From contig CAYPBP010000004.1 in the NCBI GenBank assembly GCA_964408995.1, forward strand, positions 16,618-80,617: a stretch of 64,000 bases of DNA. The letters run 5' to 3'. The DNA comes from an uncultured Gammaproteobacteria bacterium (GTDB lineage Bacteria > Patescibacteriota > Microgenomatia > UBA12405). The notes under the pieces were generated by a model. The model saw only the letters and a list, made by a program, of their open reading frames with translations. It did not search any database and was not told the origin of the DNA. The translations under genes were made by a program, and so were the position numbers. Each line of letters begins with the position of its first letter. Positions within the stretch are counted from its first letter, which is position 1. Shown piece by piece: positions 8,736 to 27,693 of the stretch.

Positions 8736-10406
<1,671 letters not shown>

Positions 10407-10417
10407 TTAATTAATAA

Positions 10418-10708
10418 TTATTTAATAATTGCCATTATATCGTCGAATTTTAATAATAATAATTCGACATTATCTTCTTTATATTCTTTACCACCCCATT
10501 CACGGTAAACAACGATGTCACCGACAAGGCATGGAGATTTAATTTCACGACCGTCTATAAAGACAGTATCGCCAACAGCGAGAACTTTACCTTGTTGAGG
10601 TTTGTCTTGATGGGTTTCTGGTAAAACGATACCAGAGGCAGTGGTTTTTTCTTGTTTTTGTGGCTCGACTAGAAGGTAGCCAGCAACAGGATGGATTTTG
10701 GTTGACAT
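10418..10708 (-). CDS. groES: Co-chaperonin GroES (Hsp10)
   Basis: 96 aa with the typical GroES mobile loop and beta-barrel motifs. It sits immediately upstream of groEL. Confidence 0.95.
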   Translation of the reverse strand: MSTKIHPVAGYLLVEPQKQEKTTASGIVLPETHQDKPQQGKVLAVGDTVFIDGREIKSPCLVGDIVVYREWGGKEYKEDNVELLLLKFDDIMAIIK

Positions 10709-10741: not shown

Positions 10742-10768
10742 TTATCAGTCGAAATAGTCGACTGCTAA
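10742..10768 (-). promoter_or_regulatory. CIRCE-like inverted repeat (HrcA operator) TTATCAGTC-N9-GACTGCTAA
   Basis: A 9-N9-9 inverted repeat with one mismatch between the arms. It closely matches CIRCE TTAGCACTC-N9-GAGTGCTAA and lies 34 nt upstream of the groES start. Confidence 0.7.
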
Positions 10769-10797: not shown

Positions 10798-10885
10798 GGT
10801 GTAAAACCCTCCGTCCCGACTGAAGTCGAGGACACCTCCCTTGACAGGGAGGCTTTAAAAAAAATAATTGGATATAATAGATAGT

Positions 10886-22775: not shown

Positions 22776-23423
22776 ATGAAAAAGTTTATTAGATTGTACA
22801 AGCCTCAAATAATAGCCTGTAGCCCGTTTTTTGTTATAGCTTTGATTATTGTTGTTCTTCATCTATTCCTGCATCCTGTAAGAGTTCTTGATATGAGTAC
22901 AAGTATATTTTATATGGATGAAAAACACACTTTGGCAGCTTTATTTTTAACACTGACGTCATTTTTGGTTGGATATTTAATATTAGTTAACCTAGTTAAT
23001 AAAAAAAACAAAACTGAACGGTTAATTAACCTTTTTTATGGTTTGTTTTTTATTATTCTTTCTATTGATGAATATTTTGAAGTTCATGAATATGCTAATA
23101 CTCTTGTAAAGGCTGCTATTAAAAATGATGGAATTGGTAAATCATTGACTAATTGGTCTTGGATTTTTCCGTTATCATTAATAATTTTAGCTGTATTTGT
23201 ATTATTTATAGTAAAAATTAAAAATCTAAAGCCTAATGCCAGGCTACCTATTATTTTAGGAACACTGTCTTTTGGGTTGGTGTTAATCTTTGAATTATTG
23301 GGTGCGGCTACTTATGGAAACAATATTTATGTATATTTTGTAGCAATTGAAGAAGGTATGGAAATGATTGGAATTTCTTTCTTTTTACTTGCTGTTTTGG
23401 TGGAAAATAAAAAGATATTATAA
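22776..23423 (+). CDS. Integral membrane protein, hypothetical
   Basis: Multiple TM helices and no known motif. Confidence 0.45.
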   Translation: MKKFIRLYKPQIIACSPFFVIALIIVVLHLFLHPVRVLDMSTSIFYMDEKHTLAALFLTLTSFLVGYLILVNLVNKKNKTERLINLFYGLFFIILSIDEYFEVHEYANTLVKAAIKNDGIGKSLTNWSWIFPLSLIILAVFVLFIVKIKNLKPNARLPIILGTLSFGLVLIFELLGAATYGNNIYVYFVAIEEGMEMIGISFFLLAVLVENKKIL

Positions 23424-25178
23424 TTGTTTGTAGATTGATTCAATTTGATCAACCATTGATTTTATAGAGAATTTTTTTGAATCAATCATAGCCTGTTTTC
23501 CAATTTTATCTCGCAAATTTTTATCTATTAAAATTTTTTTTAATAGATTTGATAATTCTTGTGAATTTTTCGGATTTACAAGAAAACCGTTTTTATTATT
23601 TTTAATAAATTCTTTTGGTCCACCAGTATTAGAGGCAATTACTACTTTTCCGGCTGCCATAGCTTCTAAATACATTAGTCCAAAGGTTTCATATAATGCT
23701 GGCACACAAACAATATCTGCTCCAGAATAAAATTCTGGCATTTTATCTGGGCTAATTATTGGTATAAATTTTACATTTTTTTCCAGTTTTTTTTCTTTGA
23801 CTATTTCTTTTATAGTTATTTTTGTATTTGCTAATACTTTATTTGCACATACTTCGTTTGAAATACTTACTAATAAAAAATTATTAATTCCATTTTTTAT
23901 TAATTTCCCCAGAGCATCGAAAACTAATTTTAAATTCTTTTGTTTATTAAGTTCTCCATTGGTTAAACTAAATAACCTGGCTGGACTAAAAAGAATTATT
24001 CTTCCTTCTTTTCTAAATTTAGACATTGTATTTCCGACTTTTGCTTTTGAAAAAAGATTAGTATCAATTCCGTTATAAATTACATTTATTTTTTTAGCAT
24101 TTGTTCCTAATTTTTTCCACTCTTTTTTAACAAAATCACTAACACAAATTAAATAGTCCCATGGTAATTCCCTTAGTGGTTTTGTCACCTCACAATCTTT
24201 TAATTGAGCATTATGAGCATGTTCAATTATTGGAATTCCAGAATTTTTTACTGTTTTAAATATTTTTAATACTGTTTTGACTCCTATGGATTTATCTTTA
24301 CTTCCAGATGGATATGTTCCATTATGAAAATGAAAGATGTCTGGTTTATTTCTTTTTAAAATTTCAAACAAGTCGTAATCAACTTTTTGTTCATTCTGAA
24401 AATTTTTGGAATCAACATATTTTCTTCTAAATACTTTAATTCCAAAGACTTTTTCATCAGTCTCTTTTCCATCATCCAGTACTGATGTTAATACTGATAC
24501 TTCATATCCTCTTTTTACTAACTCCCGAGCTTGATTTAATAATATTGTTTCGGCTCCACCAACTTTAGGATAAAAAAACCAACTAAAAAACATTATTGAT
24601 CTGTTTTTATTTTTTTCTTTTAAAACGGGTAGTTCTTTAAAATAGTTGTGGCCAAAATTATCTTTATTTAAATTTATCCAATTTTTTAAAATAAAACTAT
24701 TAAACATAGCATGGCCTACTAATAAAATATTTTTTTTAGAATATTTATTAATAAATTTTCTTAAATCTAGATACCTTTTATCTAACAAATCTGGTTTTTC
24801 ACCTTTGGTGAAAACCCAATTTTGAAAATTATTTGATTGAACATTTTTATAATCATTTGGATATTTTTTTTGGGCTTGGGCTGATGTCATTCCACTAATT
24901 ATTCCAACATCAACTTCATTTAATAATTTAGTTTTAATTATTAGAATATTTTTTCCATAACTTTCTTTTTGTTGTTTTTGATAAATTTTTGCTGTTTGAT
25001 AAGCTCTTTTTAAATTACTACAAATTATTACATCAAATTGATATTTTCCAGCTATTTTTATAGCTTGTTTTTTTACTTCTTCTTTTCCTTTACTTATTAG
25101 TGATGTATCTATGCGACTACCAGCAAAAAAATTTTTTTGATTATGTTCAGATTTTGCATGTCTAACTAAAACAATCAT
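23418..25178 (-). CDS. Fusion protein: N-terminal histidine phosphatase (PGM-like) plus C-terminal GT4 glycosyltransferase
   Basis: The N-terminus MIVLVRHAKSEHN carries the RHG-motif family signature. The C-terminal half is a GT-B fold (EHAHN..., E..FGLMYLEAMAAGKVVIASNTGG). Confidence 0.7.
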   Translation of the reverse strand: MIVLVRHAKSEHNQKNFFAGSRIDTSLISKGKEEVKKQAIKIAGKYQFDVIICSNLKRAYQTAKIYQKQQKESYGKNILIIKTKLLNEVDVGIISGMTSAQAQKKYPNDYKNVQSNNFQNWVFTKGEKPDLLDKRYLDLRKFINKYSKKNILLVGHAMFNSFILKNWINLNKDNFGHNYFKELPVLKEKNKNRSIMFFSWFFYPKVGGAETILLNQARELVKRGYEVSVLTSVLDDGKETDEKVFGIKVFRRKYVDSKNFQNEQKVDYDLFEILKRNKPDIFHFHNGTYPSGSKDKSIGVKTVLKIFKTVKNSGIPIIEHAHNAQLKDCEVTKPLRELPWDYLICVSDFVKKEWKKLGTNAKKINVIYNGIDTNLFSKAKVGNTMSKFRKEGRIILFSPARLFSLTNGELNKQKNLKLVFDALGKLIKNGINNFLLVSISNEVCANKVLANTKITIKEIVKEKKLEKNVKFIPIISPDKMPEFYSGADIVCVPALYETFGLMYLEAMAAGKVVIASNTGGPKEFIKNNKNGFLVNPKNSQELSNLLKKILIDKNLRDKIGKQAMIDSKKFSIKSMVDQIESIYKQL

Positions 25179-26533
25179 TATTCTATAATGGCTAATAATT
25201 CAGCTAAAACACGAATAGTCTTATCAGCTGCTTCTTTGAGTTCTTTAGATTTTGGTCTATAAGCTACACTTAATTTTGCTTGTTTAAAAGCTGCTAAACT
25301 TTTGTCGTTTCCGGCAACCATAATGGTTTGCGAAGGTTTTACTTTTTGTGATTTTATAGCTTTATAAAAAGATTTAGAAAATCCCTCATCAAAAGTATCA
25401 TTCATCCAATTGATTGATTCTTCTTTTATTTTACCTGTATATTTACCTTTTTTCTTCTCTAAACATATTCCATCCCAAAAATGAATACCTAATCTGTTGG
25501 CGTAAACTTCTACGATTGGTGAAAAGTTTGAGCTGATTATTCCAACTTGATACTTTCTTCTTATTAATGCTTTAATTACTTCTTGGGCATAACGAACAAT
25601 TGGTAATTTAGAAACAATTTCTTCTACTGTAGAAACTTTGGTTTCAATGAATAGTTTTGCGTTCTTTGCGAGATATTCTCTAGCTGTTATTTTTCCTTTT
25701 TCTAAAGAATCATGATTTTTATTAATTTCTTCTTGAATTCCTAAAATTTTATATAATTCTCCAAGAGCAGACTCATTAATTAAAGTATTATCTAACGTAA
25801 ATAAAACTAATTTGTAATTATGACGAATTAGGCCAGCTTTAGAAATCATTGTTTCTAATACTTGCCGACTCATTTCTTTAACTGTTTCAGCTGAATTTTC
25901 TCTGTTGACTAAAGAGCCAATGTTAACTTCAACAATCCTTTGTTCTGATTCAATAGCATCAAAAAGTAAGCCAATATCTACTCCATACCTATCAGCAAAT
26001 TCAGCATTTATTAAAAAACTTTTTTTGGCACAAATTTGACCACTAATTGGTTGATCGAAATACATACTAGGGAATAGTATTTCCATCATTGGTTTTACTG
26101 CAAATTCTGTAACCCTACCTCTGGCTCGAGTAAAAGATCCTCTAGCCATGTCTACCTTATCTAATAATACTGGTTCTACAATTTTAAATATTTTTTGACT
26201 AGTTATATTGCCTAAATCAGCATCTAAGAATAAAATTATTTCATTTCTTGCTTTTTTAACCCCAGTTTTTAAAGCTAAACCCTTACCTCTGTTTTTATTT
26301 AATTTAATATATGTGAAACGTTCTTCGTTTTCAAATTGTTTTACTGCTATTTCTGTATCATCAGTACTCCCATCATCTATAAAAATTAGTTCATCCATTT
26401 GGGGAATTTTTAATAATTCTAAAACTACTTTTACAAAACGTGGGTTTTCATTATAAGAAGGTACAACAGCAGAAAATTTTTGTGAAACTTCTTTATCTAG
26501 TTCGTTAGTTAGAAGTTCATTTGAATTTAACAT
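25178..26533 (-). CDS. Fusion protein: N-terminal GT-A glycosyltransferase (GT2/GpgS-like) plus C-terminal HAD phosphatase
   Basis: VVPSYNE...IDDGSTDDT...RGKGLALK...FLDADL is a GT-A DxD-type fold. The C-terminus carries HAD motifs (LVLFTLDNTLI ... GNDKSL). Confidence 0.7.
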   Translation of the reverse strand: MLNSNELLTNELDKEVSQKFSAVVPSYNENPRFVKVVLELLKIPQMDELIFIDDGSTDDTEIAVKQFENEERFTYIKLNKNRGKGLALKTGVKKARNEIILFLDADLGNITSQKIFKIVEPVLLDKVDMARGSFTRARGRVTEFAVKPMMEILFPSMYFDQPISGQICAKKSFLINAEFADRYGVDIGLLFDAIESEQRIVEVNIGSLVNRENSAETVKEMSRQVLETMISKAGLIRHNYKLVLFTLDNTLINESALGELYKILGIQEEINKNHDSLEKGKITAREYLAKNAKLFIETKVSTVEEIVSKLPIVRYAQEVIKALIRRKYQVGIISSNFSPIVEVYANRLGIHFWDGICLEKKKGKYTGKIKEESINWMNDTFDEGFSKSFYKAIKSQKVKPSQTIMVAGNDKSLAAFKQAKLSVAYRPKSKELKEAADKTIRVLAELLAIIE

Positions 26534-26835
26534 CGTTTATTATAACATCTTATACAATAAAAATACAAAATATTGGCTAAAGTTTGAGGAAATATGTTAT
26601 AGATACTATTTCTGTATTCTATAAAATTGAAGCAGGAAATAAAAAATACTTTTATCGGACTGAGAATATTGAAAACATCAGGCCTACGTTTCACTACGGC
26701 CTGCGAAAGCGGAACATGTGGGTCTAGCACCATTCTGTCCCTATAACACCCACATTTGATTGTCTAATTTTACCATTCTATTCATCCTAAGGTTAGAGAG
26801 TAGAACTAAATTACCAATATAAATAATTAACCCTC

Positions 26836-26865
26836 TTGACAATAAATTAGCACTCGTTTTACAAT
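26836..26865 (+). promoter_or_regulatory. hsp20 promoter (-35 TTGACA, 18-nt spacer, -10 TACAAT) overlapping a CIRCE-like half-site TTAGCACTC
   Basis: Read directly from the sequence. A perfect CIRCE left arm lies at 26847-26855; the right arm is degenerate. Confidence 0.6.
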
Positions 26866-27021
26866 ACTGCTAGGTGGTTAGAAAAACCAATATAGCATTA
26901 GCCTGCGATAGTGGCTTAATAATCATCATTGCAGTCTCCTTGGTGGGGACGCCTACAATGTAAATTGGTGATCTTCTAACCACCTTAATTAATTATTTTT
27001 ATATTTAATAAGGAGGTAAAA

Positions 27022-27450
27022 ATGTCAGTCAACATTGTTCCTAAAAAAATGTTATCTTTTCCTTCTTTTTCTCTACCCAGTCTTTGGGATGAGGATGAAG
27101 ATTGGTTTATGACTCCATCCACTCAGAGTGGACTATCTGTTTACGAAGATGACAGTAAAGTATATATTGAAACAGCTATTCCAGGGATAAACCCTAAAGA
27201 TGTCGAGGTTACCTTTCAAGATGGCTATCTATGGGTAAGGGCTGAAACTAAAGAAGAGGAAAAAGATAAAAATAAAAAATATTACCGTCAAGCCAGCCAG
27301 TCATTTTCTTACCGTGTAGCTGTTCCCGGTGAAGTTGATTCCAATAAAGAACCGGAGGCAACATATAAACACGGAATGATGACAATTACTTTTAATAAAA
27401 TTCCGAAGTCTCAGCCAAAAAAAATACAAATAAAGACAATTGACGAATAA
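27022..27450 (+). CDS. Small heat shock protein, Hsp20/alpha-crystallin family
   Basis: An alpha-crystallin domain (VYIETAIPGINPKDVEVTFQDGYLWVRAE...) preceded by an AAGGAGG Shine-Dalgarno. Confidence 0.85.
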   Translation: MSVNIVPKKMLSFPSFSLPSLWDEDEDWFMTPSTQSGLSVYEDDSKVYIETAIPGINPKDVEVTFQDGYLWVRAETKEEEKDKNKKYYRQASQSFSYRVAVPGEVDSNKEPEATYKHGMMTITFNKIPKSQPKKIQIKTIDE

Positions 27451-27478: not shown

Positions 27479-27506
27479 CCCGTTATATGACGGGATTTTT
27501 GTTTAT
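27479..27506 (+). terminator. Rho-independent terminator of hsp20
   Basis: CCCGT-TATATG-ACGGG followed by ATTTTTGTTTATT. Confidence 0.7.
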
Positions 27507-27610
27507 TACAGAAACTTGTCTTGGAAAATGTTGAATTTGGAGAATATACACCAACAAGTTAGGAAAATACTTGACTAGCACTCGGGTCGCACAGAACTTT
27601 GGCCGTTAGG

Positions 27611-27693
27611 CGGAAGGGATGGGAGTCGAACCCACATGCCATTTCTGACGCAGGTTTAGCAAACCTGTGGCTTACCATTCGCCGCACCCTTCC
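27611..27693 (-). tRNA. tRNA-Ser (anticodon GCU), class II with a long variable arm
   Basis: Reverse complement GGAAGGGTG...CAGGT TTGCTAA ACCTG CGTCAGAAATGGCATG TGGGTTCGACTCCCA TCCCTTCC G. It has a 7-bp acceptor stem and T-loop TTCGACT. Confidence 0.85.

What the first reader, a model, noticed from the sequence alone, without database searches (positions are those of the whole stretch)
26866..27024. Structured 150-nt leader of hsp20 with an anti-Shine-Dalgarno segment: candidate RNA thermometer, plus a CIRCE half-site in the promoter
Downstream of a strong promoter (TTGACA-18-TACAAT), the leader contains an 11-bp perfect long-range helix: GGTGGTTAGAA at 26873-26883 pairs with TTCTAACCACC at 26974-26984. 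An adjacent 6-bp helix (ACCAAT at 26885-26890 with ATTGGT at 26964-26969) extends it. The enclosed domain carries UCUCCUU at 26934-26940, which is complementary to the Shine-Dalgarno AAGGAGG at 27010-27016. Sequestering the SD this way is the general logic of ROSE/fourU-type thermometers found in front of small heat-shock genes. The promoter also overlaps a perfect CIRCE left arm (TTAGCACTC), suggesting dual HrcA and RNA-structure control.
Basis: seen in the sequence. Interest (0 to 1): 0.55.

Follow-up and report, generated by a model that had tools for sequence, protein, structure and literature searches.

The report
Conserved structured leader of hsp20 mRNA

Summary
The helices, promoter, Shine-Dalgarno sequence (SD) and CIRCE arm are all present; two coordinates are off by one. 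The CIRCE is complete (26847-26873, 15 of 18 bases), not a half-site. A second CIRCE precedes groES-groEL.

The leader at 26872-26986 is a real RNA domain. Its fold z-score is -3.67. Homologous copies occur in eight other Patescibacteria lineages, always in an hsp20 leader. Helices P1, P2, P3, P5 and a core hairpin are kept by compensatory changes. No Rfam family matches.

The proposed anti-SD (UCUCCUU) is the 5' strand of a variable hairpin. That hairpin is absent in one relative and reads UCUUU in others. It never pairs with the SD in the ensemble at 15-55 C. A ROSE/fourU-type zipper is not supported.

A different logic is suggested but not proven. The 5' strand of P1 (AAGGUGG) mimics the SD. 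It can also pair with a conserved internal linker (AAUCAYC). That would free the anti-SD-like 3' strand of P1 (CCACCUU) to mask the SD.

This second fold is predicted for nascent transcripts and has one compensatory change. At equilibrium the first fold wins in this window.

Verdict: a new cis-regulatory leader family, with its mechanism still open.

The parts
26836..26865 (+). Sigma-70-type promoter: TTGACA (26836-41), 18-nt spacer, TACAAT (26860-65)
   Evidence: 11 of 12 matches. The same TTGACA-CIRCE-(-10) layout is seen in nearly all orthologous hsp20 loci.
26847..26873 (+). Complete, degenerate CIRCE operator TTAGCACTC-N9-TACTGCTAG. It overlaps the spacer, the -10 box and the predicted transcription start.
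   Evidence: 3 mismatches, 0.02 matches expected by chance; 58 of 80 orthologous loci have a CIRCE with at most 4 mismatches, against 0 of 76 control stretches with at most 5.
26872..26986 (+). Structured leader domain of a new RNA family, starting at the predicted +1 of the hsp20 mRNA
   Evidence: closed domain, z=-3.67; covariance-model hits at 125-131 bits here and 28-131 bits in 8 other lineages; 93.6% of cells paired, against 33-52% when the partners are slid. The transcription start is inferred from the -10 box only.
26872..26883 (+). P1 5' strand AGGUGGUUAGAA, an SD mimic (GGUGG versus the SD's GGAGG)
   Evidence: The outer 7 bp are almost invariant. The inner pair A:U changes to G:C in 3 lineages.
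26974..26985 (+). P1 3' strand UUCUAACCACCU, which is anti-SD-like (CCACCUU)
   Evidence: It can pair with UAAGGAGG with one A-A mismatch at -7.0 kcal/mol.
26886..26891 (+). P2 5' strand ACCAAU; partner AUUGGU at 26964-26969
   Evidence: A:U changes to G:C in 3 lineages. In L086 (not in alignment A6), P2 reads ACUAG:CUAGU, i.e. C:G replaced by U:A (read from the sequence).
26895..26899 (+). P3 5' strand GCAUU; partner AAUGU at 26957-26961
26900..26933 (+). Most conserved core, with two competing pairings. The first is AGCC (26900-03) with GGCU (26913-16). The second is a nested hairpin, UGCGAU (26904-09) with AUUGCA (26928-33) plus GUGG (26911-14) with UCAU (26923-26). The linker AAUCAUC (26921-27) lies inside the core.
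   Evidence: The exact 21-base core GCATTAGCCTGCNNTAGTGGCTT is found only in hsp20 leaders in metagenomes, 7 of 7 hits.
26920..26927 (+). Alternative partner of the P1 5' strand: UAAUCAUC pairs with GGUGGUUA (26873-80) in fold B
   Evidence: this is the predicted fold of 60-102-nt nascent transcripts; 84.8% of cells paired, with U:A changing to C:G in L094. RNAalifold consensus of the first 62 nt.: -7.8 kcal/mol, the 4.9th percentile of random 14-mers.
26934..26950 (+). Variable hairpin P5, GUCUCC-UUGGU-GGGGAC.
   Evidence: C:G changes to U:A in 3 lineages. It is expanded in L091 and absent in L086.
27010..27016 (+). Shine-Dalgarno AAGGAGG, 5 nt before the ATG at 27022
   Evidence: no pairing with 26935-41 at any temperature. 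There is partial weak pairing with UCCU at 27039-42 in the CDS.
27022..27450 (+). hsp20 (142 aa)
27479..27504 (+). Terminator-like hairpin plus T-run after hsp20
10742..10768 (-). Second CIRCE in the window, between a TTGATA-17-TATAAT promoter and groES-groEL (groEL at 8736-10394, minus strand)

Best explanation
The stretch 26872-26986 is a member of a previously undescribed, lineage-restricted family of cis-acting leader RNAs. The family is found only at the 5' end of hsp20 mRNAs in some Patescibacteria (Microgenomates/Shapirobacteria-like). Transcription comes from a sigma-70-type promoter overlapped by a complete CIRCE operator, so HrcA presumably represses it (inferred).

Fold A is the most stable fold. 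The RNA forms a closed domain of P1 (12 bp), P2, P3, a conserved core hairpin and a variable hairpin P5. The SD is left single-stranded.

I think the domain most likely acts as a conformational switch on translation initiation and on 5'-end protection. The 5' strand of P1 (AAGGUGG) mimics the SD. The 3' strand of P1 (CCACCUU, or ACCUCCU-ACCACCUU in relatives) is an anti-SD.

Fold B is the alternative. While the RNA is being made, the SD mimic first pairs with a conserved internal linker (AAUCAYC). This leaves the anti-SD strand free to mask the real SD through a weak helix with one mismatch. Refolding into fold A puts the anti-SD back on the mimic and frees the SD. Refolding should be faster at higher temperature.

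Shown: the family, its fold-A helices, its exclusive link to hsp20, and the CIRCE.
Inferred: the transcription start, fold B, SD masking, and temperature as the trigger.
For: Family and fold A:
- z=-3.67.
- Nine distinct homologous leaders were found: the window, L001, L002, L081, L018, L091, L094, L095 and L086.
- 93.6% of cells are paired, against 33-52% in slid controls. Seven pairs change on both sides.
- No Rfam match in any member.
- The core motif occurs only in hsp20 leaders in metagenomes, 7 of 7 hits.
- The -10 box is followed by 6 nt and then AAGGUGG in all members, so P1 starts at about +1.

CIRCE.

Switch:
- In 8 of 9 members the 60-nt nascent transcript is predicted to pair P1a with the linker. 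In 7 of 9 it still does just before P1b is made.
- RNAalifold on an independent alignment of the first 62 nt gives the same hairpin.
- The linker positions that pair only in fold B are conserved. In L094 a U-to-C change in P1a is compensated by A-to-G in the linker, while the same change leaves a C-A mismatch in P1.
- AGCC:GGCU, which is compatible with fold B only, also has a compensatory change.
- With the 5' hairpin of fold B enforced, the SD pairs with the P1 3' strand with probability 0.83 in the window and 0.99 in L091 and L095.
- In L018 and L095 an SD-masked, fold-B-like structure is the full-leader MFE. By ensemble free energy it is favoured by 3.6 kcal/mol in L095 and level with fold A in L018.
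- Direct-path barrier estimates for B to A fall from at most 15 kcal/mol at 25 C to at most 9.7 at 45 C.
Against: - In this window fold A is about 6 kcal/mol more stable than fold B. The difference does not change between 25 and 55 C. At equilibrium the SD is therefore never masked, and no thermometer behaviour is predicted.
- Fold B rests on one compensatory event among 8-9 sequences. The RNAalifold covariation term for it is about zero.
- Each fold-B helix alone is only mildly unusual: 4.9th percentile for P1a:linker and 8.5th for P1b:SD.
- Part of the P1a:linker complementarity follows from the linker also pairing with GUGG in fold A.
- There is no cognate-specific co-evolution between the 3' half of the domain and the translation start region.
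- L086 lacks fold B.
- Long and short hsp20 leaders have the same predicted SD accessibility, medians 0.355 and 0.33.
- Barrier estimates are upper bounds from a heuristic.
- There are no transcript, probing or expression data.
Confidence: 0.35

Rival explanations
1. Static 5'-terminal stabiliser. The domain always adopts fold A. Its job is to bury the 5' end of the hsp20 mRNA in a long helix, protecting it from 5'-end-dependent RNases. This would extend mRNA life once HrcA repression is lifted. The SD is constitutively free, and fold B is only a transient folding intermediate.
For: - P1 begins at the predicted +1 in all members.
- Fold A is the MFE and leaves the SD unpaired.
- About a quarter of CIRCE-controlled hsp20 genes (15 of 58) carry long leaders from unrelated sequence families. 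Most of these begin with a 5'-proximal hairpin. This fits a requirement for structure rather than sequence.
- 5'-terminal stem-loops are established stabilisers (ompA in E. coli, several B. subtilis mRNAs; from my own knowledge).
Against: - A simple hairpin would be enough. This model does not explain the near-invariant 45-nt core, the conserved unpaired linker, or the compensatory change that maintains P1a:linker at the expense of P1.
- It also does not explain why both strands of P1 look like SD and anti-SD.
Confidence: 0.25
2. Aptamer for a trans-acting factor, either a protein or a small ligand. Binding to the conserved core and junction stabilises fold A, in the manner of a riboswitch-like ON switch, or recruits a regulator. 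Temperature is not sensed directly.
For: - The 21-base core and junction nucleotides are conserved far beyond what the helices require.
- The architecture is a P1-closed multi-helix domain whose P1 3' strand is an anti-SD. This is the layout of translational ON riboswitches (from my own knowledge).
- A possible pseudoknot is compatible with the alignment.
Against: - The motif is found only in front of hsp20. Metabolite riboswitches usually control several genes.
- It is absent from very close relatives. Hsp20 is 92% identical between L086, which has the domain, and L085, which lacks it.
- No Rfam aptamer matches.
- There is no candidate ligand or protein.
Confidence: 0.15
3. One reading: a zipper-type thermometer (ROSE/fourU logic) in which UCUCCUU at 26935-41 pairs with the SD at low temperature and melts on heat shock.
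For: Within this leader, UCUCCUU is the best single complement to the SD, at -9.4 to -9.6 kcal/mol. The gene is a small heat-shock gene.
Against: - The pairing probability is about 0 at 15-55 C.
- The segment is locked in hairpin P5 in both folds.
- The sequence is not conserved: UCUCUUU, UCUUUUA and UCUUAAU in relatives, and absent in L086.
- The complementarity is within chance for a 100-nt leader.
- No ROSE or fourU match.
Confidence: 0.03
4. Functionless insertion: the remnant of a small inverted-repeat (MITE-like) element that landed between the CIRCE and the SD.
For: - The domain has terminal inverted repeats (P1).
- Presence and absence are patchy among hsp20 genes that are 87-92% identical.
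- The neighbourhood is rich in tRNA genes and varies between close relatives.
Against: - Only one copy exists in 64 kb and in about 560 kb of related loci outside hsp20 leaders.
- All 7 metagenome hits share the same context and orientation.
- The internal helices are kept by compensatory changes, and the core is more conserved than the termini.
- No target-site duplication is visible at the ends.
Confidence: 0.07
5. Independent or processed small RNA. The domain is released as a roughly 115-nt sRNA, either by termination at the U-rich tract after P1 or by processing, and acts in trans.
For: P1 is followed by U-rich sequence: UUUUUU in L081 and UUAAUUAAUUAUUUUU in the window.
Against: - The scan finds no terminator on the plus strand at the end of P1.
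- The U-tract is not conserved: CCACCUUGCAUUAG in L095 and L018.
- hsp20 has no promoter of its own downstream of the domain.
Confidence: 0.05

Closest known systems
RNA thermoswitches of cold-shock mRNAs (S. aureus cspB/cspC, PMC8034633; E. coli cspA)
   Same: Both have a 5' UTR with two mutually exclusive folds. A long helix sequesters an anti-RBS sequence in the open state. In the other state the anti-RBS masks the RBS.
   Different: - Those control cold-shock genes and are experimentally shown. Here the gene is a heat-shock gene and the switch is only predicted.
- There is no sequence or structural homology.
- The computed equilibrium here does not shift with temperature, so any temperature response would have to be kinetic.
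ROSE and fourU RNA thermometers of small heat-shock genes
   Same: Both lie in the 5' UTR of an hsp20-family gene. Both share the general idea of controlling SD access through RNA structure.
   Different: - In ROSE and fourU the SD sits inside the 3'-most hairpin, paired to U(U/C)GCU or UUUU. Here the SD lies about 25 nt outside the structured domain and is unpaired in the stable fold.
- Rfam models do not match.
CIRCE/HrcA operator
   Same: The inverted repeat TTAGCACTC-N9-GAGTGCTAA lies at the promoters of hsp20 and groESL. It is conserved in orthologues.
   Different: - The copy at hsp20 in this window is degenerate in the right arm (15 of 18).
- It overlaps the -10 box rather than lying downstream of the transcription start.
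- hrcA itself was not found among the window ORFs tested.
Translational ON riboswitches (for example the adenine add riboswitch; own knowledge)
   Same: A P1-closed multi-helix domain in which formation of P1 removes an SD-complementary strand from the SD.
   Different: No ligand is known. The element is associated with a single gene. No aptamer family matches.
5'-terminal stabiliser structures (ompA 5' stem-loop; STAB-SD of B. thuringiensis cryIIIA; own knowledge)
   Same: A helix, and an SD-like sequence, at the very 5' end of an mRNA.
   Different: Those are short and simple. This is a 115-nt domain with a conserved core.

Membership tests
ROSE thermometer | Match to the Rfam ROSE covariance models | tested here: not met
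   No hit at the gathering threshold, nor at E up to 10 on 26500-27100.
ROSE thermometer | SD enclosed in the 3'-terminal hairpin and paired with U(U/C)GCU | tested here: not met
   The SD at 27010-16 lies 25 nt downstream of the domain. It has no leader partner in the MFE or the ensemble.
fourU thermometer | Four U residues paired with AGGA of the SD in a short hairpin that melts with temperature | tested here: not met
   No Rfam hit. Local U:SD pairs have probability at most 0.18. SD accessibility does not rise between 15 and 55 C.
CIRCE/HrcA operator | 9-bp inverted repeat TTAGCACTC-N9-GAGTGCTAA | tested here: met
   26847-26873 matches 15 of 18 bases, with 0.02 matches expected by chance.
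CIRCE/HrcA operator | Located at promoters of chaperone genes and conserved in orthologues | tested here: met
   A second copy precedes groES-groEL. 58 of 80 orthologous hsp20 loci carry a CIRCE, against 0 of 76 controls.
CIRCE/HrcA operator | hrcA encoded in the genome | not tested
   21 window ORFs were scanned and none is HrcA. The rest of the genome is not available.
RNA thermoswitch (csp-type) | Two mutually exclusive conserved folds | tested here: inconclusive
   Both folds keep 87-94% of cells paired, and each has compensatory changes. Fold B rests on very few events.
RNA thermoswitch (csp-type) | RBS masked in one fold | tested here: inconclusive
   Predicted in fold B: 0.83 in the window and 0.99 in L091 and L095, but only 0.16-0.26 in L081, L086 and L094.
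RNA thermoswitch (csp-type) | Temperature shifts the balance between the folds | tested here: not met
   The computed free-energy difference (A minus B) in the window is -6.8, -6.2, -6.0 and -6.4 kcal/mol at 25, 37, 45 and 55 C. Only the estimated barriers depend on temperature. This needs an experiment.
Metabolite riboswitch | Aptamer recurring upstream of several functionally linked genes | tested here: not met
   All copies are in hsp20 leaders.
MITE-like insertion | Multiple dispersed copies and a target-site duplication | tested here: not met
   There is a single copy. The flanks CTA and TTA are not a duplication.
Intrinsic terminator / attenuator | GC-rich hairpin directly followed by a T-run on the coding strand | tested here: not met
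   No plus-strand terminator site at 26985. The U-tract is not conserved.

The most novel reading that the evidence does not exclude
The leader is a kinetically controlled, one-way heat sensor. Each new hsp20 mRNA is born in an OFF fold: the SD mimic is captured by the internal linker, and the freed anti-SD strand masks the real SD. Heat speeds up strand exchange into the much more stable ON fold. That fold releases the SD and also locks the 5' end into a protective 12-bp helix. Transcripts made before or during the stress are then switched on irreversibly. This would be a new RNA family and a new type of thermosensing logic for a heat-shock gene, layered on HrcA/CIRCE control, in the candidate phyla radiation. 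I know of no cis-regulatory RNA characterised in that group, and two full-text literature searches found none.
Probability: 0.15. Interest if true: 0.75.

Novelty: new variant of a known kind. Interest (0 to 1): 0.45.

Why it matters
I know of no experimentally characterised cis-regulatory RNA in candidate-phyla-radiation bacteria, which have tiny genomes and few recognisable regulators. Two full-text literature searches for thermometers or CIRCE/HrcA in this group returned nothing.

This leader is a conserved 115-nt family with no match in Rfam, tied to a single stress gene. It gives a concrete, testable case of RNA-level control stacked on the classical HrcA/CIRCE circuit.

About a quarter of CIRCE-controlled hsp20 genes in these lineages have acquired long structured leaders from several unrelated families. 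This suggests a recurrent selective need that is not yet understood.

If the partner-swap switch is real, it would add a heat-inducible, kinetically driven counterpart to the cold-shock thermoswitches.

Tried and rejected
1. Rfam, at the gathering threshold on the whole window, at E up to 10 on 26500-27100, and at E up to 0.5 on six related loci. Only tRNAs and noise were found.

2. Rejected by MFE, centroid and partition function at five temperatures and by lack of conservation.

3. A coding reading of the domain. There is a 30-codon GTG ORF from 26874. It is rejected because the closest relative has a 1-nt deletion that creates an early stop.

4. A general link between long leaders and SD masking. 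Predicted SD accessibility is the same for 43 short and 20 long leaders.

5. Extension of fold B into the first codons. In the window ACAAUGU at 26955-61 is complementary to ACAUUGU at 27033-39, and relatives have similar pairs. Cognate pairs are no better than non-cognate ones, so this was dropped.

6. Relatedness of the other long-leader families (L005; L010, L015 and L022; L013, L017 and L028; and others) to this one. Two covariance models do not detect them, and their architectures differ.

7. Structure-aware MAFFT modes were not installed. A plain MAFFT alignment misplaces P2 and gave a misleading RNAalifold result.

8. Three further Hsp20 look-ups chosen to enlarge the family returned only short leaders.

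9. Numbers for L094 are unreliable because my pattern for its linker failed.

10. Two literature searches for thermometers or CIRCE in Patescibacteria returned nothing.
Full report
**Context.** The window is AT-rich and comes from a Patescibacteria (CPR) genome. The closest Hsp20 proteins and loci are from Shapirobacteria and Microgenomates-type metagenome bins. The ORF 27022-27450 is an Hsp20 (PF00011, E=4e-15). A terminator-like hairpin follows it at 27479-27494. A 488-nt intergenic region precedes it.

**Observation check.** The promoter TTGACA-18-TACAAT (26836-26865) matches 11 of 12 positions. The 11-bp helix is at 26873-83 and 26974-84, as stated. The SD is at 27010-16.

An inverted repeat of this length is not rare in the window on its own: there are 62 of at least 11 nt within 150 nt. 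But the leader as a whole folds better than all 200 dinucleotide shuffles. Its MFE is -45.6 kcal/mol and z is -3.67.

**CIRCE.** TTAGCACTC (26847-55) is followed after 9 nt by TACTGCTAG (26865-73). The full CIRCE pattern therefore matches with 3 mismatches. Only one other such match exists in the window, at 10742-10768, and 0.02 are expected by chance.

That second site lies between a TTGATA-17-TATAAT promoter and groES-groEL on the minus strand.

Among 80 orthologous hsp20 loci, 58 have a CIRCE with at most 4 mismatches within 260 nt of the start codon. None of 76 control stretches has fewer than 6. The operator is real and complete. At hsp20 it overlaps the spacer, the -10 box and the predicted start, so it is not part of the transcript. 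hrcA was not among the 21 window ORFs scanned.

**A discrete leader module.** The distance from the CIRCE to the ATG is bimodal: 18-79 nt in 43 loci and 105-181 nt in 15. The long leaders belong to several unrelated sequence families.

The family present in this window was found in nine distinct lineages. These are the window, L001 (same as L087), L002 (L088), L081-84 (L089, L090, L093), L018, L091, L094, L095, and a shorter form in L086 (L092).

An exact search of public metagenome contigs for the 21-base core GCATTAGCCTGCNNTAGTGGCTT gave seven hits. All lie in hsp20 leaders, in the same orientation. Viral contigs gave none.

Two covariance models (R1 and R2) found no further copy. They were run over the 64-kb window and about 500 kb of related loci (564 kb in all). 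Apart from the nine leaders, only weak reverse-strand echoes of the long helices appeared.

Presence is patchy. Hsp20 of L086, which has the domain, and of L085, which lacks it, are 92% identical. L095 has the domain while L101 and L102, at 87% identity, lack it. No Rfam family matches any member.

**Fold A.** Single-sequence folds and the model-guided alignment A6 agree on the following helices (window coordinates):
- P1: 26872-83 with 26974-85.
- P2: 26886-91 with 26964-69.
- P3: 26895-99 with 26957-61.
- A core hairpin: 26904-09 with 26928-33, plus 26911-14 with 26923-26.
- P5: 26934-39 with 26945-50.

On A6, 93.6% of cells form standard pairs, against 33-52% when the partners are slid by 1-3 columns. 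Seven pairs show changes on both sides. A6 was fitted to this structure, so it leans towards it. Even so, the main compensations are visible in the raw sequences:
- P1 inner AGAA:UUCU becomes AGGA:UCCU.
- P2 A:U becomes G:C. In L086, P2 reads ACUAG:CUAGU.
- P5 CC:GG becomes UU:AA.

In every member the -10 box is followed by 6 nt and then AAGGUGG. The helix P1 should therefore begin at about +1 of the mRNA (inferred).

UCUCCUU is the 5' strand of P5.
- P5 is the least conserved element. It reads GUCUCU/GGAGAC in L002, GUCUU/AAGAC in L018 and GUCUU/AGGAC in L094.
- It carries a 13-nt insertion in L091 and is deleted in L086.
- In the partition function of the full leader plus 33 nt of CDS, the SD never pairs with 26935-41 at 15, 25, 37, 45 or 55 C.
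- The mean unpaired probability of the SD is 0.42 at 15 C and 0.32 at 55 C, so it does not open with heat. Its only partners are weak local ones, such as UCCU at 27039-42.
- The UCUCCUU:SD duplex (-9.4 kcal/mol) sits at the 1.7th percentile of random 17-mers. That is unremarkable for a 100-nt leader.

**A second, competing fold (fold B).** Three purine tracts resemble each other: P1a (AAGGUGG), the core (AGUGG) and the SD (AAGGAGG). Two pyrimidine tracts can pair with them: the linker AAUCAYC(UU) and P1b (CCACCUU, preceded by ACCUCCU in L091 and L095).

The evidence for fold B is as follows:
- For nascent transcripts of 60 nt, P1a is predicted to pair with the linker in 8 of 9 members. The inner part is then either CCA:UGG plus GCA:UGC, or AGCC:GGCU. 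The pairing persists until just before P1b is made in 7 of 9.
- RNAalifold on an independent MAFFT alignment of the first 62 nt returns the same hairpin.
- On A6 this hairpin keeps 87.4% of cells paired, against 33-57% when slid.
- In L094 a U-to-C change in P1a is matched by A-to-G in the linker, giving U:A to C:G. The same change creates a C-A mismatch in P1.
- AGCC:GGCU, which excludes the upper core stem of fold A, also shows A:U to G:C in L094.
- The upper stem of fold A shows G:U, G:C and A:U.
- Both folds therefore carry some comparative support.
- With the fold-B 5' hairpin enforced, the SD pairs with P1b with probability 0.83 in the window, 0.58-0.78 in L001 and L002, and 0.99 in L091 and L095. 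It is only 0.16-0.26 in L081, L086 and L094.
- In L018 and L095 an SD-masked, fold-B-like structure is the full-leader MFE. By ensemble free energy it is favoured by 3.6 kcal/mol in L095 and level with fold A in L018.

**Limits of the switch model.**
- In this window fold A is about 6 kcal/mol more stable. The difference is flat between 25 and 55 C, so equilibrium thermodynamics predicts a permanently open SD.
- The model therefore needs kinetic trapping. Direct-path estimates, which are upper bounds, give a B-to-A barrier for the domain alone of at most 15.0, 11.5 and 9.7 kcal/mol at 25, 37 and 45 C. Once the SD is paired the values are 27, 22 and 19.5. These are compatible with temperature-accelerated refolding but do not prove it.
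- Fold B rests on one or two compensatory events. Its covariation term is about zero.
- Its helices are individually only at the 5th to 8th percentile of random segments.
- The 3' half of the domain is no more complementary to its own translation start region than to those of other members.
- L086 lacks fold B.
- Across all hsp20 loci, long leaders do not lower predicted SD accessibility.

**Assessment.** I am confident (about 0.9) that this is a genuine, conserved, hsp20-specific structured leader RNA of an undescribed family, sitting behind a complete CIRCE-controlled promoter.

My best mechanistic reading is a partner-swap switch controlling SD access and 5'-end protection (0.35). It is followed by:
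- a static 5' stabiliser (0.25);
- a factor-binding aptamer (0.15);
- a neutral insertion (0.07);
- a released sRNA (0.05);

The closest described systems in logic are the cspB/cspC thermoswitches of S. aureus. There, a long hairpin holds an anti-RBS in the open state (PMC8034633). However, this element shares no homology with them, serves a heat-shock gene, and is untested.

Noticed in passing
window 26700-26760 (+); also L001 about 1900-1985, L083 about 2110-2180, L089 about 4745, L028 2702-2745, L013 about 4140: A GC-rich box of about 45 nt is conserved across distant relatives. The consensus is GGCGGAGCAT(T/G)(G/T)GGGTCTGGAACC-N4-TGTCC(C/T)TATAAC. It lies upstream of the hsp20 promoter here and in L028, but downstream of hsp20 in L001 and L083. 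In L083 it occupies the position that a tRNA-Ser gene holds in the sister contig L081. Part of it resembles the T-arm region of tRNA-Ser(gct). There is no Rfam or ARAGORN hit. It could be a tRNA-derived remnant, a recombination site or an unknown small RNA.
   Followed up: partly
window 10742-10768 (-) and 8736-10708 (-): A second CIRCE (TTAGCAGTCGACTATTTCGACTGATAA on the minus strand) lies between a TTGATA-17-TATAAT promoter and groES-groEL. Here the operator is downstream of the -10 box and so is transcribed, unlike at hsp20.
   Followed up: partly
window 27571-27604 (+): The box TTGACTAGCACTCGGGTCGCACAGAACTTTGGCC abuts the 3' end of tRNA-Ser(gct) (27609-27693, minus strand). The same box precedes the conserved GC-rich motif in L083 and L089. 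It looks like a promoter reading antisense into the tRNA, or like part of a recombination site.
   Followed up: no
window 26788-26810 (+): The box AAGGTTAGAGAGTAGAACTAA lies 25-50 nt upstream of the -35 of hsp20. It is conserved in L001, L087 and L081 (AAGGTTGGGGAGTAGAACTAAC and GTAAGGGAGTAGAATTA). It may be an upstream promoter element or a regulator binding site.
   Followed up: no
window 23418-26533 (-): Two fusion genes are transcribed divergently from hsp20. One is a GT2 glycosyltransferase fused to a HAD phosphatase (25178-26533). The other is a histidine phosphatase fused to a GT4/GT1 glycosyltransferase (23418-25178). The domain content resembles glycosyl-glycerate-type compatible-solute synthesis, which would make this a small stress locus.
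   Followed up: no
L010, L015, L022; L013, L017, L028; L005, L035, L045, L058, L059, L060, L062, L063 (100-180 nt upstream of hsp20): At least six other unrelated families of long structured leaders lie between the CIRCE and the SD of hsp20 in other Patescibacteria. Some have explicit SD-complementary segments: UUACCUCCUCC in L010 and L015, and a terminal SD hairpin in L063.
   Followed up: partly
window 10800-10850 (+): A GC-rich hairpin, CCTCCC-TTGACA-GGGAGG, with a neighbouring GTCCCGACTGAAGTCGAGGAC stem. It lies in the AT-rich spacer between the groES promoter and a metallo-beta-lactamase-fold gene. Its function is unknown.
   Followed up: no
L081-L084: Contigs carrying the identical Hsp20 protein share their upstream genes but have four different downstream neighbourhoods. 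The downstream side of hsp20, next to the tRNA genes, therefore appears to be a rearrangement hot spot.
   Followed up: no
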